Part shown: positions 50,076 through 59,867 of the stretch, piece by piece
Layout of the letters: every line of letters starts with the position of its first letter
Numbering within the stretch: position 1 is the first letter of the stretch
Origin: Candidatus Poribacteria bacterium
GTDB taxonomy: Bacteria > Poribacteria > WGA-4E > WGA-3G
NCBI GenBank assembly: GCA_965214095.1
Contig: OZ243938.1
Span: 3,552,001 to 3,616,000, forward strand
DNA length: 64,000 nucleotides
Reading direction: 5' to 3'
Translations under genes and position numbers: made by a program
The notes under the pieces: generated by a model
Told to the model about the DNA's origin: nothing
Seen by the model: only the letters and a program-made list of their open reading frames with translations
Databases searched by the model: none

Positions 50076-53000
50076 ATGGCAGACAAAGAAAATCGATTTA
50101 ATCGTATATCTATTAGTATCGCCTCCCCTGAACAGATAAAGGATTGGGCAAAACGCACGTCCTGTAAGCGACGGAATCCGGCAAATGATGTATGGACATG
50201 TGCTGAAAAAGGCACTTGTGATTGCGGTGAAATCAAAAAAGCCGAAACTATTAATTATCGCAGTTTTCGCCCGGAGCAACAAGGTCTATTCTGTGAAGCT
50301 ACATTTGGTCCACAGAAAGATTTTGAGTGCAGTTGTGGAAAGTACAAACGTATTAAGCACAAAGGACTAATCTGTGACCAGTGTGGGGTTGAAGTTACAA
50401 AGTCTCAGGTTAGAAGAGAACGGCTCGGTTACATAAAACTTGCAACACCAGTATCTCATATATGGTTTTTCAAAGGGATACCATCCAGACTCGGCACATT
50501 CTTGGAACTTGCATCGCGCCAAGTCGAGAGAGTTCTCTACTTTGAAGCTTTTATTGTCACAGAGGTAACTGATGACAACTGCGGTTTAGCTGAAAAAGAT
50601 ATTCTTACTGAACCAGAAGTTATTGCAAAGCAACGCGAATTCCCCGATGCCTTTAAAGCTGGAACTGGAGCTGAGGCGATACAGGAACTGCTAAGTAAAA
50701 TTGACCTACCAGAAGATGTTAAAAAGTTTAAAGGAGAACTTGAGGAGACTTCAAGCCATCAGAAAAAAGTTAAACTCTCAAAACAATTGAAGATGGTCGC
50801 AGGTTTCGAAAAAGCAAGCATGCAACCCGATTGGATGATCCTTGAAGTGCTTCCAGTGATTAGTCCTGACCTACGTCCATTAGTATCTTTAGAAGGTGGT
50901 AGATTTGCTACAAGTGACCTGAACGATTTATACCGTCGCGTTATTAATAGGAACAACCGCCTACAGAAACTAATTGATCTACGTTCACCAGAAGTTATCC
51001 TCCGTAACGAAAAACGGATGCTTCAGGAATCTGTTGACGCGTTTTTGGATAACGGAAGACATGGACGCAAAGTCACAGGTCCGGGTAAACGCGCCCTAAA
51101 ATCTTTGTCTGATATTCTTAAAGGTAAAGTCGGACGGTTCCGTCAAAATTTGCTTGGGAAACGTGTGGACTATTCTGGCAGAAGTGTGATTGTCGTCGGT
51201 CCTGAATTAGAACTGCATCAGTGTGGCATACCGAAGTTAATGGCTGTGGAACTTTTCAAACCTTTCATTATTGAGAAACTGATGACATCGGGAGAAGCGC
51301 AGACTATAAAACGGGGCAAGCACTTGACCGATCACGTCACACCTGACTCGCCTGTCTGGGAGGCATTGGAGGAAGTCATCGCTGACCACCCTGTCCTCTT
51401 AAATCGTCCACCGACACTTCATCGTCTCGGAATTCAGGCGTTTATGCCTGTGCTGGTTGAAGGAAAATCCATACGAATTCCGCCACTTGTTTGTAAGGCA
51501 TTCAATGCTGATTTTGATGGAGACCAGATGGCTGTTCATGTGCCGCTCTCTATTGAGGCTCGTACGGAAGCAAAGATGTTACTGCTCAGTAGTGGGAACA
51601 TTCTAAAACCTTCCCACGGAGAACCCATTGCAGTTCCCGAACTTGACATGATTTTAGGGGCAAGTTTTCTTACCAAAGAACTTCCCGATCACAGAGAACA
51701 AGCAGAAAAACTACACGCTGCTTATGCTGATAGCTCCGATAAAAATAAGGTGTTCGCAACATTAGAAAGCGAGACTTGGGCAAAAAGACGGTTTACAACA
51801 CTTGATGAGGTTACACACGCACACGGTTGCGGCACGATCAAACTCCATGATTCTGTGGTTCTCTTTTTCAAAGAACATCGTGAACCTATCCTCACTACTG
51901 TCGGACGCGTTATTTTCAATGAAGTACTGCCTCATACAAACGGTACAGTTTCACTCTCATGGCCAGATGAAATATCAGGTCTTGAATTACCATTCTTCAA
52001 TGAGGAAGCACGAGGAAGACGGCTGTCAGAACTTGTCAAACAGTGTTTCAATGAGCTTGGGACTGCTGAAACTGTTTCTCTATTAGATCGATTACAGAAG
52101 CTTAGTTTTGAATATGCAACGCGGAGTGGCATTTCTCCGGGTATTAAGGACTATTTGATACCTGAAGAGAAGAAAAAAATCCTCAGGGATGCTCAGAAAC
52201 AGATTGATCTTCTCAGACAGCAAGAGGACCTTGAGGCGGAAGAATTTGAAAACGAAAAAATTCGGATATGGTCTGTCGCAGTGAATGAAGTTGGTGAGAC
52301 GTTGTTTACGGAACTCCCAGAAACGAAAGCATATCTGGTTGAACAAGGGAAAGAGGTAGAAGGATTTAGTCCCGTTCATCTGATGGCAGATAGCGGTGCA
52401 CGCGCACGGAAAAATCCATTCTCACAAATCAGTGCAATCGTCGGATTGAAGTCAAGACAAGATGGTGAAATCCTATCCACACCGATACAATCCTCATATC
52501 GCGAAGGTCTAGATGTACTTGATTACTTCACATCTACTTACGGGTCACGAAAAGGATTGGTGGATACGGCTATGAAAACTGCCGCATCCGGATACCTTAC
52601 ACGGAAACTTGTTGATGTCGCACAAGATGTTATGATTACCGAAGATGACTGCGGTACTATGAACGGTATCCTCAAGTTTACCACAGACGCTGGGTCCATC
52701 AGCTTTAAAATTAGTGGACGCATTACAGTTGAACCTGTGGTACATCCGTCAACAAAGGAAATATTGGTAGAAAGTGATACTTTCATTAGTCCACAGTTAG
52801 CACAGAGGATTGAAGCCGCTGAAGTGCCAAGTGTGCGTGTCCGGTCAATATTGACATGTGAGACGGAAAAAGGCGTTTGTGCAAGATGCTACGGTGCTGA
52901 TTTAACTTCGGGGCAACTTGCCAACGTAGGAGAAGCAATTGGTATCATCGCTGCACAATCTATTGGTGAACCCGGCACACAGTTGACAATGCGTACGTTC

Positions 53001-55685
53001 CATACAGGTGGCGTGGTTGAAGATGTCAGTGAAGGTCTGGCACGTAAGATTCTTGCGAAAACTTCAGGAACAGTGCGGTTTAGAGATTTCATTCCTGGAC
53101 GTACTGTAAATGAAATAGACGGGCTCTGGGTTGTAGACAAGGTGGCAGAACACCTTGACCAAGCTAAATATAAGGTCAAGAATGTACAACATCCTGAATG
53201 TCCGCTGCAACCTGATGAACTCCTTACTGAAAGACAATATCAAGAAAACATTGAACGGTATCCTGGGTTTGAAGGAGAACCTATCGTCTTTGAGGTAATC
53301 AAAGTAAACAAACCTGAGATTGTTGAGGAAAATTCAAATAATGAATTTTCATTACAAGAGGGACAGTACCTCACTGAACAGGAATACAGCATGTGTCTTC
53401 ATCGGTATTCATTGTTCCGAGTTTCTGAACCGCTGTACCGTGTTCAAAGTGTGAAACATCCTGAAATTTCATTGGAAACAGGTGTATTGTTGACAGAAAC
53501 AGATATGGAAGCATGGAAAGTTAAAATCCGACCTTTCACGGGTGAATGGGTTTATCAAACTGACAAAGGGGACCTCCTTACCGAAAGTGAATATCTGCAA
53601 CAACAGAAAGATGTTACAGCAGTCATGAAGTACCAAATTGAGTCTATTAAGGATGAGAGTTGTACGTATAAGGAAGGGGATTTACTTGAAGTTGAACAAG
53701 AAAGTCAACATCATATTGATTTTGATGATCCCGTCTATACCGTGAAAGATGTCAGTCCAGGTATAGATCTGTCTGAAGGTCAAGAGTATAGTGTCACTGA
53801 CTTACAGAGGGTACAGGAAGAAAATAAAACTTTTGAAGTCCAACGTCCTACTGCAAAATTGATGCGGGTAACACAAGTAAACCATCCTGAATGTCCGCTG
53901 AAACTTGGTGAAATGATTGATGACGACAGCTTAGAGACACTTCAGGATAAGTTCAGTGGATTTACTGCGGAACGACTCAGATATAGGATTACAGCTGTTC
54001 ATCATCCGGATTGTCCGTTAGACACAGAAGAGCTGCTTACTGAAAATGAGAAAAAGGCTGTGTTGAAAGCGTATCCAGGTTTTGAAGTAGATGTGGAAAA
54101 AAATGAAGGCGCATTTGAAGTTGAAAGACTCTATCGCGTCGTTGCATCACATCACCCAGACTTTCCAGTGTCTGAAGGTGAGATCATCACACAATCTGAG
54201 TCCAATCGGTACCGGCGCATCTTCAAAGGCTTTGACAATGAGAAACTACATATACGTGTCCAGGATGGCGAAGAGACTGAAGAGGTATTAACAGATACCG
54301 AATACAAAGCACTCGTCAAACAGCATAGAGAAACGGATACACCACCACCTGAATTTAAACTGGTATATCATATTCTTGCTGTTCACCATGAGGAATGTCC
54401 ATTTACCGCTGGACTACAGATTGATGAAACTGAATACAAACGGGGTCAACGTTTATATAAGGGATTTGATACGGAACGGGTATTTAAGGTTATCAAAATC
54501 AATGAACCAGATGCCGATGTGAAAGTTGATCAAACCCTTAGTGAGGCTGACTACAAGGAAGCATTATCAACTACTTCACGGAATACTTCTCGAGTTACCA
54601 AAGTTTTACATCCTAACTGTACGCTTGATATTGGTCAAGAGTTGAAAGATTGGGAATATAACACTGCCCTTGAACAATATCCAGGTGTTGTTGTTGATGG
54701 TTTGATCGAAACATTTCGGATAGAAATTATTATGGAAGATGGTGGACATAAATCTCACCTTATTCCAACAGGCTACTCCGTTTCTGTGAAAGATGGCGAT
54801 AGAGTTAACCTACAAAGTCCATTGGCAGAAAGACACGAAAAAAGCACTAACCTTGATATCGTCGTTGGTATTCCGAGGGTGACTGAACTCTTTGAAGCAC
54901 GTCGTCCGAAACGTGAAGACGCTGCCGAAATCGCTGAGATTGATGGACAACTACAACTTTCTGGGCAGAAAGCAGGCGTGCCTCAATACCGAATTGTAGA
55001 TGGTGCAACAAAAAGTCGTCTATATTCTATACCTGACGAGAAAAGACGAGTTGATGATGGGGACGATGTTGAAGCGGGACAACCACTAACTGATGGGTAT
55101 CTCAATCCACACGATATACTTACTATCGGTCGAACTACCCTCAATGGACATTCACTTGAAGGTGAAGAAGCACTTTGGACTTATCTTGTTGATGAAGTGC
55201 AGGCTGTCTATGGCGCAAACACTATTAACGACAAACACGTTGAAGTGATTGTACGTCAAATGCTCCAGAAGATACGGATCCTCACTGTGGGCGATACAAC
55301 GTTCTATGCAAACGACGAGGTTACCAGACACAAGTTCCACGCAGAAAACAGACGCGTTGAAGAAGAAGGTGGCACTCCCGCCACAGGTGAACCTGTCCTG
55401 CAGAGTATCAGTAAAGCATCGCTTAGCACTGAAAGTTTTATCTCCGCAGCGAGTTTCCAACAGACACCGAAAGTCCTAACCGATGCCGCTGTTGAAGGGC
55501 AAACCGACATGCTCACAGGTCTGAAGGAAAACGTAATCCTTGGTAGGCTTATCCCCGCTGGAACAGGTTTTTCTGAATGGCAGGAACTTAATGTGTCTTA
55601 TGATGCAATTGAAGACGAAGTTGAACCAGAAGTATTACCAGAAGAGCTGCCTGAACTGGAAGCCGAAGTCGTTGAAGAAAGGTAG
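50076..55685 (+). CDS. rpoC: RNA polymerase beta' subunit with very large repeat-containing trigger-loop insertion
   Basis: [37 protein letters not shown]; 1869 aa. Confidence 0.98.
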
Positions 55686-55697
55686 ACAGACCACTAT

Positions 55698-55847
55698 TAT
55701 AGTGAATTATAAAATTAAGTGAACTTTTGCTTAAGAACTACGGTGTTCGTATTCGTGCAATTCATTGTGCCTCGGACATTCACAGGTAGGCGAGGTTTCC
55801 TAACCTCGTCTATGCAGAGTGTGCAAGTAATTTCAAAATCTACTATA
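55698..55847 (+). mobile_element. MITE-like shell with a single REP (variant family)
   Basis: TATAGTGAATTATAAAATT...GTAGGCGAGGTTTCCTAACCTCG...AGTGTGCAAGTAATTTCAAAATCTACTATA; similar to 18277-18379. Confidence 0.75.
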
Positions 55848-55869
55848 ATCTGGTAATCAATCAAAAAGT

Positions 55870-55898
55870 TTGACTTTTTCGTGTGTTAGTAGTATTAT
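55870..55898 (+). promoter_or_regulatory. Sigma70-type promoter of a non-coding unit
   Basis: TTGACT-17 nt-TATTAT. Confidence 0.7.
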
Positions 55899-56000
55899 AT
55901 ATTTAGCATCTTTGGATAGAGTTCTCACCTCAGGGTTTTCGCGTCCTGAGTCCTATCCGCACCCGTGAGAAAGTGTGTGGTGCTTGTGAGAAATCACTCG

Positions 56001-56182
56001 CGGCAGGCATACCGAGAGTTTAAACGCTTGTGGAGTCCAAATAAGACCTTCATATTTCCAATCGGGAAGGAGGCACGAGAGACGGAAGCAGGAAGAGTCA
56101 TTTAGGTTTCTACCTAATATAAGAACTAAGAACCCCAACGGTTTAGTGTGGGGTACATGTCAGTGGAGAATAAATGCCAAGG
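56001..56182 (+). ncRNA. TnpB omegaRNA/reRNA-like scaffold (IS200/IS605 right end) plus putative guide, with no tnpB ORF
   Basis: Blocks CGGCAGGCATACCG, ACGCTTGTGGAG, TAAGACC, GGCAC..GAAGCAGGAA and right-end hairpin AAGAACCCCAACGGTTTAGTGTGGGGTACATGTCA, recognised from memory of IS605-family tnpB 3' ends. Confidence 0.68.
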
Positions 56183-56353
56183 GAGAGGACAGGGTATACA
56201 CAAATAATCTATCTGTGTATACAGGAAAATAGAATTTCGTCTTAACTGGTATCGGTTGATACCAAAGAGAAATTAACGCTTTCTTCCCATGGTTGGTGGG
56301 TTGACAAACCCGGTTTCTGCAGAATCTGAAATTTATTCATAATTAATATAGAT

Positions 56354-56387
56354 AACGCGCAAGATGAGAATCCTGCGCGTTTTTTTT
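56354..56387 (+). terminator. Rho-independent terminator closing the non-coding unit
   Basis: AACGCGCAAGAT-GAGA-ATCCTGCGCGTT followed by a T-tract. Confidence 0.8.
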
Positions 56388-56410
56388 GTACTTGGCAAAT
56401 CTGTGACTCT

Positions 56411-56547
56411 TATAGTGAAATGTAAAAACACGTGCACACTCCCTGGTAGATGCGGTTTCCTAACCGCATCTATGAGACAGAACAAACACCGGTTCGGTTA
56501 GGAAACCGAACCTACCGTAGTGTGTAAATAATTATGGTTTTACTATA
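56411..56547 (+). mobile_element. MITE-like TATAGT-ended element carrying a REP doublet (copy 3)
   Basis: Near-identical to 22224-22361. Confidence 0.87.
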
Positions 56548-56717
56548 AATGCGAATTTTTAGTTGCGGGGTTTGCAGTTACACTGTTTCTTGTTTGTCTA
56601 TCTTTATACCTTTTGTGTGTTACTACGCTATAAAAGACATAAGGATGGAATAAATTAAATTTAACATATCCAGTATTTTAGAAAATTAGAAAAAATAAAT
56701 AAACAGAATCACAAATA

Positions 56718-59700
56718 GTGATTAAAGGAGAACAAAAATTGTTCCTGAAAACAAAATTGACACTTTCTTTAATATTTAATGTTTTACTTGTTTCCGTGTT
56801 TATGTTAGTTGCAACGCCGAGTTTTGCAACTGTTACCGTAACTGCACAGGTTACTGAGGTAGTAGATTCTTCTACTGGACCACCTATAGTCCAAGGTAAG
56901 AAGGTAGTTACGATAAAATATAGTGAGAATGCTGACCCCGAACCAACATTGAATGATTTTACAACAGATGGTTCTGAAAAACTCATTGATGCTGTGGCAG
57001 CCGATTCAGCTACACTCTCAGTTGAAATTGGTGGGAGTGGTGATACCTATACACTAACGTTTTTGGGTCCTGTTGATGGGTCCGGAGCCCCGATAATTCC
57101 AAACTTGAAATTATCTGGATATGAGATTGAAAACACTTTAGAAGATGATTCTGCTGATATAGCGATTGCTCCTGTCAGGGAATTTCTGCTTGAATTGAAT
57201 ACCATTGGAGGTAAAGGTTATGCCATTATCGCGAATTATACCAATGAGGATAATACGCTAAATAATCTAAGTGATCTTGCAAATGATCCTGCTGAGTACC
57301 CTCGACTTCCAGTTCTTGATGATCCAGATATGATTGTCAGATCTACTTGGTCAAATCATTCTGATGAACTGATGCCGAATCTTAGGAATCTCTTTACAAG
57401 GACTCCGGGTGGTACAATTAACTTGAGGGTTCAAGATAGTACAGGTGCAAAAGTCGGTGACATTCGCGATGTAATGATTAACGAGATAATGTGGGCAATT
57501 GACGAATCATTATTAGGTACTGGAAATGAGAGACGTGAACAGTGGATTGAAATCTGGAACACCAGAACCACACCAATTGCGCTTGGTAATATTCGCCTGT
57601 CAACTTCAAAACAGTATCCAGCACCTGATGAAGAGACCGATAGAGTGAGTAACATACCTGATTTTATAACTTCTTGGGAAGTTTTAGGTCAAGATGGTAA
57701 CTCCAATCCGAATGACCTGAAAGAATTTGTCTCCATGTATCGGACAAAAAAGGCAGATGGTTCAGCTCCTGAAAACTGGAATATATCTATGGAACTGTAT
57801 TATGCGAACTATAGAGGAACACCTGGTCAGGAAAACGCTCTTACAGGCATTCGGGCTGCACGTACTGTTCCAGTCACAGATACACCGGAAAAAACTACTT
57901 TTGTTATCAATGAAATCGGTAATATATCGGATGACACACTTGACTGGATTGAGATTAAGAACATCCATGCAGATGCACAATCATTAAAGAATTGGGCACT
58001 CTCCAAAATTACTGCATTCAATAATGAAATAGAGATCTATCGTTTTCCTGATAAGTCAATTCCCTCAGGTGGAATAGTGTTGTTAGTGAATAGACATCCT
58101 ATTGACACGCCGCTCGCGTCCGGGTTTGATTTGTCTGTGGATAATAGGTACGATCAAGACTTTGGAGCAGATAGCAATGTTTCTTATCTAATTGTTCCAG
58201 AGAATAAGATTGCAATTCCAAATAATAATGATTGGTTCCTTATTCTTCGGGACGGTAGTCCTTGGAATATAAAAGATGGCCGGAGTGTCTATAACTCAGG
58301 TTATCAACTACAGGATGTTGCCGGTCCGGTGCAAATTGAGTTGAAAGATATCAACGTTGAAGTGCCTCGTAAAGAGAAGAAAATAGATGGTACTGGTGGC
58401 GGTGATATTTGGGAAACAACACTATTCCCGATGAATGGTCGTGGTGAAAGTGGTGACAAAATCCTCAGACATGATCGTGACCTGAGTGCAAATGTCTGGG
58501 AACGTGACACTGAAAAACATGGTTGGGAAATACATGCTTTCAACCAAGCTGATTTCTCTGGTGTCGGTTATGACCGTAATGTTAGACCTGAAGCAAGATA
58601 CGGTGGAACACCCGGTTATGAAAACGATGTTAATAAAGGTAAAGCATCCGAATTTACTGATGGAACACTTATCATTAGTGAATTGATGCTCGCAGCCGAT
58701 GGTGGACGTTACCCACAGTGGATTGAACTTCATAACACTTCCAGGACCAATGGTATAGACCTTAGTGCTGACGGAAGTGATATAGATGGTAGCAATAAAG
58801 ATGATGGATGGCGGATGATTATTGAAAACCATAACTCAGGTTCATGGCGAGAATATAACCGCGATTTACTTATTACCATTAATTTGAAGGACTTCGGCGG
58901 TATAAAATATATACCACCGAATCAGACGATTCTTATCACATCCAGAAGAGCAACTAAGGTTTCAGATCGTGATCATTTTCCTGATCATCGGGTTAGTAGT
59001 GTTTGGGAAACAGAGACTGTTCGAAATGCCTTTGATATGATAAATAGAAAATCTTTGATACTGAATGCAGAAAACGGTTTCTATATTAAGATCGTTGATG
59101 GGGCAGGAAATGTTACCGATGAAGTTGGTAATCTTGATGGTCAAGATGCTGATTTTCGTAGAGGCATTGGTTTTGACGATGCTTATAGCTGGCACTGGCC
59201 GACTGAGATGACCGAAGATCGTAAGCGTACCTCATTGATTCGACTTATGGATGACACGTGGGGTGATGGTTCTGTACGAGGCGTATCAGGTGTAAGGTCT
59301 GGAACAGCCGGCACACCACGCAAAGGGGTACCAGATCGGTCTGTTGATGGTGATATAACAGGTGCTGTTGTGCCAATGGGTGTGAACACCCGTCATAGAG
59401 AGTATGCTTGGGTTCATGCTGTTGATACAGACTTTGAAAGCGTACAAGATACATACTATGGTGAAATAAGCGACATTAGTACGCCATTACATACAGCCGG
59501 TACACCATTGCCAGTATCCTTGTCCTTTTTCCGTCCATCACTGGAAGATGGTAAAGTCGTCATCCGTTGGACAACAGAATCTGAACTTGATAACGCAGGA
59601 TTTAATATCCTCCGTAGTCATAGCCGAAATGGTGAATTCGAACAGGTGAATGACAAACTGATCCAAGGTAAAGGTACAACAGCGGAACGTAGTATCTACA

Positions 59701-59867
59701 AATGGGTGGATGTTTCAGCGAAACCAGGTGTTGTCTATTATTACCAAATTGAAGATGTATCCTTCGCAGGTGAACGTTCAACGTTTACAACTACAAAGTT
59801 GAAAGGTTTGATCTCAGCTAAAAACAAACTCCCAATACTGTGGAGTGAATTGAAATCACAGAATTAA
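56718..59867 (+). CDS. Large secreted lamin-tail-domain protein with C-terminal LPVSL..WTTESE.DNAGF domain
   Basis: Signal peptide; three (V/I)I(N/S)E(I/L)...WIE(I/L).N units; tail ISAKNKLPILWSELK; start uncertain. Confidence 0.78.
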   Translation: MIKGEQKLFLKTKLTLSLIFNVLLVSVFMLVATPSFATVTVTAQVTEVVDSSTGPPIVQGKKVVTIKYSENADPEPTLNDFTTDGSEKLIDAVAADSATLSVEIGGSGDTYTLTFLGPVDGSGAPIIPNLKLSGYEIENTLEDDSADIAIAPVREFLLELNTIGGKGYAIIANYTNEDNTLNNLSDLANDPAEYPRLPVLDDPDMIVRSTWSNHSDELMPNLRNLFTRTPGGTINLRVQDSTGAKVGDIRDVMINEIMWAIDESLLGTGNERREQWIEIWNTRTTPIALGNIRLSTSKQYPAPDEETDRVSNIPDFITSWEVLGQDGNSNPNDLKEFVSMYRTKKADGSAPENWNISMELYYANYRGTPGQENALTGIRAARTVPVTDTPEKTTFVINEIGNISDDTLDWIEIKNIHADAQSLKNWALSKITAFNNEIEIYRFPDKSIPSGGIVLLVNRHPIDTPLASGFDLSVDNRYDQDFGADSNVSYLIVPENKIAIPNNNDWFLILRDGSPWNIKDGRSVYNSGYQLQDVAGPVQIELKDINVEVPRKEKKIDGTGGGDIWETTLFPMNGRGESGDKILRHDRDLSANVWERDTEKHGWEIHAFNQADFSGVGYDRNVRPEARYGGTPGYENDVNKGKASEFTDGTLIISELMLAADGGRYPQWIELHNTSRTNGIDLSADGSDIDGSNKDDGWRMIIENHNSGSWREYNRDLLITINLKDFGGIKYIPPNQTILITSRRATKVSDRDHFPDHRVSSVWETETVRNAFDMINRKSLILNAENGFYIKIVDGAGNVTDEVGNLDGQDADFRRGIGFDDAYSWHWPTEMTEDRKRTSLIRLMDDTWGDGSVRGVSGVRSGTAGTPRKGVPDRSVDGDITGAVVPMGVNTRHREYAWVHAVDTDFESVQDTYYGEISDISTPLHTAGTPLPVSLSFFRPSLEDGKVVIRWTTESELDNAGFNILRSHSRNGEFEQVNDKLIQGKGTTAERSIYKWVDVSAKPGVVYYYQIEDVSFAGERSTFTTTKLKGLISAKNKLPILWSELKSQN

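What the first reader, a model, noticed from the sequence alone, without database searches (positions are those of the whole stretch)
55870..56387. Stand-alone, promoter-driven TnpB omegaRNA-like RNA with no tnpB gene
Seen: a TTGACT-17-TATTAT promoter, then about 480 nt with no sizeable ORF, then a strong terminator. Positions 56001-56162 carry blocks I recognise from IS200/IS605 tnpB 3' ends, in the expected order: CGG..GGCATACCG, ACGCTTGTGGAG, TAAGACC, GAAGCAGGAA, then a CCCCA..TGGGG hairpin ending in GTCA. Where tnpB coding sequence would be, there is a hairpin-rich leader (GGATAG/CTATCC, CTCAGG/CCTGAG). Established: TnpB uses this right-end RNA as its scaffold and the following ~16-20 nt as guide. 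Inference: this is a domesticated, trans-acting guide RNA for a TnpB or dead-TnpB (TldR-like) protein encoded elsewhere. The putative guide is GUGGAGAAUAAAUGCCAAGG (56163-56182). I found no target for it in this window.
Basis: partly seen in the sequence, partly recalled or inferred. Interest (0 to 1): 0.85.

Follow-up and report, generated by a model that had tools for sequence, protein, structure and literature searches.

The report
Guide-RNA-only mini transposon relic
This stretch is a stranded, gene-less copy of a small IS200/IS605-type transposon that carries only a promoter, a folded leader and a TnpB guide-RNA scaffold, a kind of element already described elsewhere, here in a sponge-symbiont lineage and with a previously uncatalogued leader fold.

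Summary
Window 55870-56163 has a sigma-70-type promoter, a structured leader and a TnpB omegaRNA scaffold, with no tnpB gene. The scaffold is homologous to the right ends of tnpB insertion sequences in the same genome and in relatives.

It is not a one-off domesticated RNA. It is one copy of a family of tnpB-less mini IS200/IS605 elements (PATE-like, "standalone omegaRNA") found in 24 of 40 genomes of the genus, at 1-53 copies each. Named relatives are Candidatus Poribacteria.

Intact members have a left-end hairpin, promoter, about 95-nt pseudoknotted leader, long hairpin, scaffold and right-end hairpin, then unrelated flanks. The window copy has lost the left-end hairpin and the long hairpin, so it is probably immobile. 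It keeps the promoter, leader fold, scaffold and right end, which ends at 56163.

The "guide" (56164 onward) is simply the insertion flank. I found no target for it. The terminator at 56354-56387 belongs to the host rpoC 3' region.

Two intact, nuclease-type TnpB genes 74% identical to the cognate protein lie elsewhere in the genome, so use in trans is possible but untested.

Such elements are already in print. The leader fold, with strong covariation and no Rfam match, is the new part.

The parts
55785..55849 (.). High-copy interspersed repeat that abuts the truncated left end. It is context, not part of the element.
   Evidence: There are about 165-228 blastn hits genome-wide over 55780-55850, and many copies are 95% identical over 55785-55849.
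55850..55869 (+). Remnant of the left-end spacer (CTGGTAATCAATCAAAAAG). The left-end hairpin that should lie upstream is missing.
   Evidence: This stretch aligns with the spacer between the LE hairpin and the promoter of a full-length relative (L034). No CCCC..GGGG / CTTTAG hairpin occurs between the rpoC stop at 55685 and 55870.
55870..55898 (+). Sigma-70-type promoter TTGACT-17-TATTAT. The inferred transcription start is about 55905.
   Evidence: The promoter scores 10 of 12 consensus positions. The same position is conserved in mini-elements and in full-length IS left ends. It is 80% identical over 54 nt to the left ends of another tnpB IS family in the same genome. The start site is an inference.
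55903..55998 (+). Leader domain with five helices:
- P0: 55905-55910 / 55979-55984
- P1: 55914-55919 / 55953-55958
- P2 hairpin: 55929-55936 / 55943-55950
- Pseudoknot: 55922-55928 / 55965-55971
- P3: 55960-55963 / 55972-55975
   Evidence: Covariance model R1 matches here at 97.4 bits. Covariation is strong: 32 pairs, 98.5% paired, 20 pairs with changes on both sides, and 0 of 500 shuffles reach the observed values. The minimum-free-energy fold of the window sequence alone recovers P0, P1, P2 and P3.
55999..56163 (+). TnpB omegaRNA scaffold, comprising:
- stem 1 at 56001-56014
- core GTGGAG..AAGAC at 56030-56047
- hairpin 56102-56117
- right-end hairpin 56132-56154
- end motif ATGTCAG at 56157-56163
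   Evidence: The scaffold is homologous to tnpB right ends in the own genome and in relatives. Three helices covary. The right-end boundary is set by flank divergence among copies.
56164..56183 (+). Guide position (TGGAGAATAAATGCCAAGGG), that is, the flanking host DNA directly after the right end.
   Evidence: The position follows from the right-end boundary. No other place in the genome matches with 2 or fewer mismatches. The single 3-mismatch match lacks the candidate TAM.
56270..56337 (+). Host intergenic segment 'X'. It is conserved with the closest relative, where it lies upstream of that genome's element copy.
   Evidence: X is 74% identical to L018rc 1244-1311.
56354..56387 (+). Intrinsic terminator of the host rpoC 3' region. 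It would also end transcripts that start in the element.
   Evidence: The fold is -17 kcal/mol, z = -4.97, followed by U8. It is conserved at 76% in the closest relative, where it follows directly after that genome's element copy.

Best explanation
Window 55850-56163 is an immobilised, internally deleted copy of a non-autonomous IS200/IS605-family mini-element. This is the PATE-like, 'standalone omegaRNA' kind of element.

**Intact family members, in order:**
- a TTATC-type (or TGAAG-type) motif at the left boundary
- a left-end hairpin
- the sigma-70 promoter that in full-length relatives drives tnpB
- a ~95-nt pseudoknotted leader
- a ~75-nt hairpin
- the ~165-nt omegaRNA scaffold, ending in the right-end hairpin and ATGTCAG

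**Inferred mechanism for intact copies, following the published IS200/IS605 model.** A Y1 TnpA supplied in trans moves the element as single-stranded DNA. Transcription from the internal promoter runs through the scaffold into the flank, which becomes the guide. A TnpB made by a full-length relative binds this RNA and cuts the emptied donor site, so that recombination restores the element.

**The window copy.**
- The left-end hairpin is replaced by an unrelated high-copy repeat, and the internal hairpin is deleted. It can presumably no longer be excised, and its guide has no target in the genome.
- It may still be transcribed, from its own promoter and by read-through from rpoC.
- It may still bind the resident TnpB, which is 74% identical to the cognate protein.
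- It most likely has no consequence for the cell.

**Shown versus inferred.** Homology, anatomy, family membership, RNA covariation, absence of the left end and absence of a target are shown. Transcription, TnpB binding, immobility and neutrality are inferred.
For: **Homology to tnpB right ends.**
- Window 55997-56094 matches 7 other own-genome places. Four of them lie 32 nt after TnpB Zn-ribbon matches.
- All family-A right ends stop at GTGAGTATCAC and then diverge.

**Family membership.**
- 18 of 24 same-genus genomes match by blastn, against 0 of 16 from other genera.
- Mini-elements with leader plus scaffold and no tnpB have sharp ends and unrelated flanks.
- Leader model R1 hits 24 of 40 genus genomes at 1-53 copies, and exactly 1 place in the own genome.

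**Full-length relatives.**
- Elements with the same left end, promoter and right end carry a ~396-aa TnpB.
- That TnpB is 74.7% and 73.7% identical to two own-genome genes. These match solved TnpB at E = 3.8e-47 and keep the D/E/D motifs.

**Losses in the window copy.**
- The left-end hairpin is absent and replaced by a repeat.
- The internal hairpin is absent.

**Host context.**
- In the orthologous locus of the closest relative (rpoC 89% identical), a different copy sits between segment X and the terminator.
- The terminator is therefore host sequence, and the flank or guide is not conserved.

**Co-occurrence in 40 genus genomes.**
- Leader and A/W-clade TnpB together: 22
- Leader only: 2
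- TnpB only: 7
- Neither: 9
- Related genomes are not independent samples.

**Literature.**
- Standalone omegaRNAs are 'evidently mobilized' and 'function in trans' (PMC10691335, passages).
Against: - This genome has only one copy with the leader, so mobility of this copy cannot be shown.
- Its left boundary and TAM are gone, so insertion by TnpA is inferred from relatives only.
- An immobile copy that keeps promoter, leader pairing and scaffold could reflect selection rather than youth. It deviates at only 3 of 62 conserved leader columns and 2 of 58 conserved scaffold columns.
- Two related species each carry a copy in the same rpoC 3' intergenic region, in the same orientation but at different sites. 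Random insertion does not readily explain this.
- The last ~60 nt of the window scaffold differ in sequence from the right end of the resident TnpB's own element, so compatibility in trans is uncertain.
- No Rfam omegaRNA-type model matches. None matches intact relatives either.
- There is no expression evidence.
Confidence: 0.8

Rival explanations
1. Domesticated trans-acting guide RNA. On this view the immobilised omegaRNA is kept by the host and is expressed from its own promoter or the rpoC 3' UTR. It would direct a TnpB or a dead TnpB to a host or foreign target for regulation or defence.
For: - The copy is immobile yet retains promoter, leader fold, scaffold and right-end hairpin.
- A second species has a copy in the same rpoC 3' intergenic region, in the same orientation.
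- Intact TnpB genes are present.
Against: - No target was found. With 2 or fewer mismatches the 20-mer matches only itself. The single 3-mismatch place lacks the candidate TAM and lies inside what looks like coding sequence.
- Exact matches in metagenome and viral contigs lie in unrelated DNA.
- The relative's copy has a different flank, so no guide is conserved.
- None of the other 26 genus loci examined has an element downstream of rpoC within the 1.5 kb fetched.
- The TnpBs checked keep nuclease motifs: 14 of 22 frames clearly, and the 527-aa clade on realignment.
- Among 19 leader sequences, the window copy has the most deviations at conserved columns.
Confidence: 0.08
2. The functional unit is the leader domain, not the omegaRNA. 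On this view the pseudoknotted leader is a cis-acting or trans-acting RNA in its own right, for example a ligand-binding or protein-binding element or a 5' stabiliser. It would ride on several mobile elements, and the scaffold here would be a passenger.
For: - The leader is more conserved than the element ends and covaries strongly.
- It occurs in front of scaffolds of TnpB lineages that share only about 27-32% protein identity.
- It also occurs in front of a 43-aa ORF (10 equal-scoring copies in G046) and in front of an HNH-motif ORF followed by a recombinase-like ORF.
- It starts at the inferred transcription start, with the 5' end paired in helix P0.
Against: - In 18 of 27 leader matches examined, an omegaRNA core motif follows within about 30-170 nt.
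- The own genome has a single copy, and no housekeeping gene was seen behind a leader.
- The copy in the closest relative at the rpoC locus has lost half of the leader but kept the scaffold.
- No known riboswitch or ribozyme model matches.
Confidence: 0.08
3. An ordinary host small RNA or rpoC 3'-UTR element whose likeness to tnpB right ends is coincidental.
For: - The locus lies between rpoC and its terminator.
- The whole 488-nt stretch folds better than shuffles (z = -2.84).
Against: - Homology to tnpB right ends extends over about 165 nt and ends exactly at the family's transposon boundary.
- The same module is multicopy, with unrelated flanks, in relatives.
- Only 1 of 27 orthologous rpoC loci has anything similar.
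Confidence: 0.02

Closest known systems
PATE-like non-autonomous IS200/IS605 elements and 'standalone omegaRNAs' (Meers et al. 2023 preprint PMC10055086; Altae-Tran et al. 2023 PMC10691335, which cites Altae-Tran et al. 2021)
   Same: - It has no protein-coding gene.
- It has left and right ends like those of tnpB-bearing IS elements in the same genomes.
- It keeps the right-end omegaRNA scaffold.
- It must rely on TnpA and TnpB supplied in trans.
- It is multicopy, with unrelated flanks.
   Different: - The poribacterial family carries, in place of tnpB, a conserved ~95-nt pseudoknotted leader plus a long hairpin behind the element's own promoter. I saw no mention of such a module in the passages I read. 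Figures and supplements were not available to me.
- The window copy itself lacks the left end and the internal hairpin.
Full-length IS200/IS605-family tnpB elements (IS1341-like, tnpB only) of the same genome and genus
   Same: - Relatives L023, L025 and L034 share the left-end hairpin, promoter position, scaffold and right-end hairpin.
- The own-genome family A shares the 5' two-thirds of the scaffold at about 80-85% identity.
   Different: - There is no tnpB ORF.
- The last ~60 nt of the scaffold differ in sequence from own-genome family A, although the layout is the same: hairpin, A-rich linker, right-end hairpin, 8-nt tail.
TldR-associated guide RNAs (TnpB-like nuclease-dead repressors; definition taken from the abstract listing of 10.64898/2026.09.22.753285; other details recalled)
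   Same: A TnpB-type scaffold that is no longer part of a mobile element could in principle guide a protein to a fixed target.
   Different: - No nuclease-dead TnpB was found.
- No promoter-proximal target was found.
- No guide is conserved across species.
- The RNA is not adjacent to a TnpB-like gene.
IStron-derived PATE (Zedaveinyte et al. preprint 10.1101/2023.11.20.567912)
   Same: A gene-less derivative that keeps structured RNA between IS605-type ends.
   Different: The cargo here is about 170 nt with no group I intron match in Rfam. No splicing function is suggested.

Membership tests
TnpB omegaRNA (right-end RNA of IS200/IS605-family elements) | Sequence or structure homology to the segment that overlaps the 3' end of tnpB and runs to the right end | tested here: met
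   Searches show the homology. Three helices covary.
TnpB omegaRNA (right-end RNA of IS200/IS605-family elements) | The scaffold ends exactly at the transposon right boundary and is followed by a variable flank that serves as the guide | tested here: met
   Copies share ...ATGTCAG and diverge immediately after it. In the window the boundary is at 56163/56164.
TnpB omegaRNA (right-end RNA of IS200/IS605-family elements) | Match to a curated covariance model | tested here: inconclusive
   There is no Rfam match for the window. There is also none for five intact relatives, so Rfam 15 does not cover this lineage.
TnpB omegaRNA (right-end RNA of IS200/IS605-family elements) | Transcribed and bound or used by a TnpB protein | not testable with these tools
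   The RNA libraries found gave no usable cover of the locus. No protein-RNA tool was available.
PATE-like non-autonomous IS200/IS605 element | Left and right ends with subterminal hairpins like those of autonomous or tnpB-bearing relatives | tested here: not met
   The family meets this feature. The window copy has the right-end hairpin (56132-56154) but no left-end hairpin. It is therefore filed as a truncated derivative, not an intact member.
PATE-like non-autonomous IS200/IS605 element | No protein-coding gene between the ends | tested here: met
   The longest frames are 46 aa and 61 aa. Indels among copies are not multiples of three, and changes are compensatory for RNA pairing.
PATE-like non-autonomous IS200/IS605 element | Multiple copies with unrelated flanks, as evidence of mobility | tested here: met
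   This is met for the family: 1-53 leader matches per genome in 24 of 40 genus genomes, with flanks differing. In the own genome there is one leader-bearing copy only, plus two leaderless or truncated relatives.
PATE-like non-autonomous IS200/IS605 element | Conserved target or TAM motif abutting the left end | tested here: inconclusive
   TTATC occurs in 9 of 10 W-type copies, with CTATC in the tenth. It lies 3-6 nt before the conserved left-end sequence. Its exact relation to the cleavage site is unresolved, and it is lost in the window copy.
TldR-type domesticated guide RNA system | Partner is a nuclease-dead TnpB homologue | tested here: not met
   The closest partner keeps D (GIDVG), E (IGIETL) and D (DRDINAA) aligned to solved TnpB. 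In total 14 of 22 TnpB frames clearly keep all three motifs, the 527-aa clade does on realignment, one frame is unclear and two are fragments. That these are the catalytic residues is recalled, not tested.
TldR-type domesticated guide RNA system | Guide complementary to a host target; locus and guide conserved across species | tested here: not met
   One search found no target. Searches show a different flank in the one relative with a copy and no element in 26 other orthologous loci.

The most novel reading that the evidence does not exclude
The ~95-nt leader is a previously undescribed structured-RNA class. It has a three-way junction (P0/P1/P3), a nested hairpin (P2), and a pseudoknot between the P1 bulge and the P3 loop.

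On this reading it works as a portable 5' module that makes guide-only (tnpB-less) transposons self-sufficient for expressing, stabilising or maturing their omegaRNA. It has been exchanged between elements that depend on TnpB lineages only ~30% identical to each other. The window copy, although stranded, would then still produce a TnpB-loadable RNA.
Probability: 0.3. Interest if true: 0.65.

Novelty: new member of a known kind. Interest (0 to 1): 0.4.

Why it matters
Gene-less IS200/IS605 derivatives that keep only the guide-RNA scaffold show that the guide, the nuclease and the transposase of these transposons can be supplied separately. This idea is already in print.

This case adds three things:
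- an uncultivated sponge-symbiont lineage in which such elements have expanded, with up to 53 leader matches in one genome;
- a clean example of an immobilised copy whose anatomy can be read base by base;
- a strongly covarying leader fold, absent from Rfam, that travels with omegaRNA scaffolds of different TnpB lineages.

If the leader proves to control omegaRNA production or stability, it could be useful for expressing compact TnpB guides. It would also explain how guide-only parasites of TnpB persist. For the window itself, the practical consequence is annotation: this is a mobile-element remnant in the rpoC 3' region, not a host regulatory RNA.

Tried and rejected
**Rfam.** Nothing reached gathering score on the whole window. 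At E <= 10 on 55600-56750 there were 11 weak hits, none TnpB-related. The best was L20_leader at 23.2 bits against a 58.7-bit cut-off, and it rests on the terminator. Five intact relatives gave 2 chance-level hits.

**Expression.**
- The look-up of sequencing runs listed one metatranscriptome with a 0.04 share of words (X1), four runs of unknown kind holding 0.92-0.94 (X2-X5), and one guessed RNA run with 0.00 (X6).
- I laid X1, X6, X2 and X3, that is 4 of the 6 listed.
- X1 covered only the flanking high-copy repeats and 56012-56062, the latter on a contig that continues into a tnpB-like 3' coding end of another organism's element.
- X6 laid nothing. X2 and X3 look like DNA of the source or a near relative.
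- This gives no evidence for or against transcription of the locus.

**Guide target.**
- In the own genome the guide matches only itself at 2 or fewer mismatches.
- One 3-mismatch place, C1:5194036 on the - strand, lacks TTATC. It is also the only 16-mer match with 1 mismatch. By my own arithmetic about 0.1 such matches are expected by chance.
- The exact 20-mer in metagenome contigs gave 1 hit in a 28% GC contig. The exact 18-mer in viral contigs gave 1 hit. Neither has a TAM or any likeness to this genome. I rejected both as chance.

**Empty site.** Apart from G021, the regions downstream of rpoC in the other 26 genus loci could not be aligned. No pre-insertion site could therefore be reconstructed for the window copy.

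**Small-protein reading.** Rejected, because the frames are 61 aa or shorter and substitutions are compensatory for RNA pairing.

**HDV-like, hammerhead and other ribozyme readings of the leader.** I considered these from topology alone. No Rfam support exists, and the P2 loop is not conserved.

**Literature.**
- 'Poribacteria' with 'TnpB' returned 0 papers.
- 'Poribacteria-1', a motif name I recalled, returned 0 papers.
- The 'orphan / stand-alone / non-autonomous' search returned nothing relevant.
- PMC8730458 had no passage on trans-acting omegaRNAs.
- Figures, extended data and supplements of the cited papers were not available. They may show PATE anatomy that bears on how new the leader is.

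Full report
**What is at the coordinates.**
- The region lies between a 1869-aa rpoC-like ORF (50076-55685, +) and a 1049-aa ORF (56718-59867, +).
- A TTGACT-17-TATTAT promoter-like site sits at 55870-55898.
- No frame longer than 61 aa lies inside 55870-56387.
- A hairpin at 56354-56381 followed by T8 folds at -17 kcal/mol with z = -4.97.
- The whole 488-nt stretch folds better than all 100 shuffles (z = -2.84).
- Rfam gives nothing at gathering score and nothing TnpB-related at E <= 10.

**The resemblance to tnpB right ends is real homology.**
- Window 55997-56094 matches seven other places in the same genome at 79-91% identity. Four of them begin 32 nt after a TnpB Zn-ribbon (PF07282) match.
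- The genome has 27 PF07282 matches at E <= 1, of which 22 are over the curated cut-off.
- One tnpB family ('A') forms a 1380-bp element present twice at 95% identity.
- All its right ends, solo copies included, stop at GTGAGTATCAC and then diverge.
- The window shares the 5' two-thirds of this scaffold. It has a different sequence, in the same layout, over the last ~60 nt.

**Relatives show what the locus is.**
- In 18 of 24 other genomes of the genus, and 0 of 16 from other genera of the order, blastn finds pieces matching either the leader (55887-55999) or the whole scaffold up to 56163.
- Several places have both pieces about 80-100 nt apart with no ORF between them.
- Alignment of 26 such copies gives the intact element:
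  - a boundary motif, TTATC or TGAAG according to subfamily
  - a left-end hairpin
  - a TTGACA-17-TATxAT promoter
  - a ~95-nt leader
  - a ~75-nt hairpin
  - a ~165-nt scaffold with a right-end hairpin
  - the terminal motif ATGTCAG, GATGTCAA or GTGAGTATCAC, after which the flanks are unrelated
- Full-length elements in three relatives (L023, L025, L034) have the same left-end hairpin, the same promoter position and the same right end, but carry a tnpB of ~396 aa.
- The mini-elements are therefore tnpB-less derivatives that keep the tnpB promoter and the omegaRNA.
- Records that hold the exact leader motif in the named genome collection are titled Candidatus Poribacteria in 69 of 70 stretches. 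The remaining one is titled 'uncultured bacterium'.

**State of the window copy.**
- Homology to the family begins at about 55850, in the spacer before the promoter.
- Upstream of that point lies a ~65-nt repeat present in well over a hundred copies.
- No left-end hairpin exists between the rpoC stop and the promoter.
- The internal long hairpin is missing: the leader runs straight into stem 1 of the scaffold.
- Promoter, leader, scaffold and right-end hairpin are present.
- At columns conserved in all but at most two sequences, the window deviates at 3 of 62 leader columns. A fourth deviation is an artefact of where I cut the sequence. This is the most among 19 rows, the others showing 0-3. 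It deviates at 2 of 58 scaffold columns, where others show 0-7.
- Stem 1 has one C.A mismatch.
- The right end is at 56163, so the guide position starts at 56164.

**Host context.**
- The closest relative, G021 (rpoC 3' end 89% identical), has the same flanking genes. It also has a mini-element in the same intergenic region and the same orientation, but at another site.
- There the order is rpoC, ~330 nt, segment X, element (with left-end hairpin and a differently truncated leader), terminator.
- In the window the order is rpoC, repeats, element, 106 nt, X (56270-56337), terminator.
- Hence the terminator and X are host sequence, the flank or guide differs between the two species, and the two copies are most simply separate insertions or a local move.
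- The rpoC 3' end was found in 27 of the 30 other genus genomes searched. Only G021 has an element within 1.5 kb downstream.
- One relative, G005, has a terminator and a convergent gene directly after rpoC.
- Why two species carry copies in this one intergenic region is unexplained.

**Possible partners.**
- The cognate TnpB of relatives is 74.7% and 73.7% identical to the two family-A genes of this genome, and 25-32% identical to its other full-length TnpBs; two degenerate family-A remnants match more closely.
- The family-A protein (358 aa) has the three TnpB Pfam domains.
- It matches solved TnpB chains at E = 3.8e-47 over residues 8-354.
- It keeps D/E/D in the RuvC-type motifs. That these residues are the catalytic ones is recalled, not tested.
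- Of 22 TnpB frames, 14 clearly keep all three motifs. The 527-aa clade does so on realignment to chain 9b0l_P. One frame is unclear and two are fragments.
- Y1 transposase genes are present: 4 full matches and 1 partial.
- Across the 40 genus genomes, leader and A/W-clade TnpB co-occur in 22. The leader alone is found in 2, both carrying only divergent leader variants. TnpB alone is found in 7, and neither in 9. Related genomes are not independent, so I give no test statistic.

**The guide.**
- The 20-mer after the right end matches only itself at 2 or fewer mismatches.
- The single 3-mismatch place lacks the candidate TAM.
- Exact matches in metagenome and viral collections are in unrelated DNA.
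- This is what the published IS200/IS605 model predicts. The guide matches the element's own flank, and the target exists only after excision joins the TAM to that flank (PMC10055086, passages). Without a left end, that joint cannot form here.

**The leader.**
- On 19 sequences, 27 pairs are 98.5% paired, against 33-52% when partners are slid. Nine pairs change on both sides, and 0 of 500 shuffles reach the observed values.
- A covariance model built without the pseudoknot finds one copy in the own genome.
- It finds 24 of 40 genus genomes and 56 of 151 genomes of the class. Those lie in 4 of 24 genera, almost all in two genera of one family.
- On 27 matches that include divergent ones, a five-helix fold is 98.5% paired, with 20 of 32 pairs changing on both sides.
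- This includes 5 of 7 pairs of the pseudoknot and 4 of 4 pairs of P3. Those helices, like P0, were not in the model that made the alignment.
- The fold starts at the inferred transcription start, with the 5' end paired.
- The leader also precedes scaffolds that match the right ends of this genome's 382-, 341- and 378-aa TnpB families.
- In two cases it precedes ORFs instead of an omegaRNA.
- An omegaRNA core motif follows the leader in 18 of 27 matches. Two of the other nine had 170 nt or less of sequence available, and three show variant cores.
- Its function is unknown. A 5' stabilising or processing module is my best guess, and that is an inference.

**Comparison with what is known.**
- Gene-less PATE-like IS200/IS605 elements that 'often encode omegaRNAs' needing TnpB in trans are described (PMC10055086, passages).
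- 'Standalone omegaRNAs', mobilised and shown to work in trans, are also described (PMC10691335, passages).
- A PATE with IStron ends is mentioned in 10.1101/2023.11.20.567912 (passages).
- I therefore file the locus as a truncated member of a known kind.
- I found nothing in print on TnpB in Poribacteria.
- In the passages read, I found nothing on a conserved leader module in such elements. Figures and supplements were not available to me.

**Verdict.**
- The 'domesticated guide RNA' interpretation is only partly supported.
- The best explanation is a stranded guide-only mini-transposon (confidence 0.8).
- Interest is moderate. It rests mainly on the uncatalogued leader fold and on the expansion of guide-only elements in this lineage.

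Noticed in passing
window 55700-55850 and 56400-56550: Short interspersed repeats flank the locus, each with hairpins built on GGTTTCCTAACC / GGTTAGGAAACC. They give about 30-230 blastn hits on the left side and 160-555 on the right side in this 5.2-Mb genome. Their nature was not examined; they could be REP-like or MITE-like.
   Followed up: partly
L018 (G021), reverse strand about 1340-1643: The closest relative has its own mini-element copy in the same rpoC 3' intergenic region and the same orientation. It sits between segment X and the terminator, about 175 nt from the window's site. It has an intact left-end hairpin and a leader truncated after P1. No explanation was found for two insertions, or a local move, in one ~1-kb region.
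   Followed up: partly
L002 about 1232-1649 (own genome, outside the window): This is a second tnpB-less element in the same genome. It has a TGAAG-type left-end hairpin and a family-A right end, but a different, leaderless interior.
   Followed up: partly
L005 (own genome C1 about 868400-868600, - strand): This is a 5'-truncated mini-element: the tail of the leader, the long hairpin, and a family-A scaffold and right end. It directly follows WD40-repeat-like coding sequence, which appears to read into it.
   Followed up: no
L172, L173 (G046) and L177 (G120): Divergent leader copies stand behind sigma-70-type promoters but are not followed by an omegaRNA core. In G046, 10 equal-scoring copies precede a 43-aa basic ORF. 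In G120, which belongs to another family of the order, one copy precedes an HNH-motif ORF and a tyrosine-recombinase-like ORF.
   Followed up: partly
L183:384-1967 and three to four similar frames in the own genome: These are TnpB-like proteins with open frames of 482-568 aa (ORF 527 aa in L183). Their best solved relative is 'TnpB-like protein L79' (chain 9b0l_P, E = 5.6e-26). They are four to five copies of a lineage distinct from the ~360-420-aa TnpBs.
   Followed up: partly
window 50076-55685: The rpoC-like ORF is 1869 aa, and the preceding rpoB-like ORF is 1341 aa. From recall, this is much longer than typical bacterial RpoC. The extra length was not examined.
   Followed up: no
own genome contig C2: This 32-kb contig has 64% GC, against 41% for the main contig. 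It may be foreign or mis-binned DNA in the assembly.
   Followed up: no
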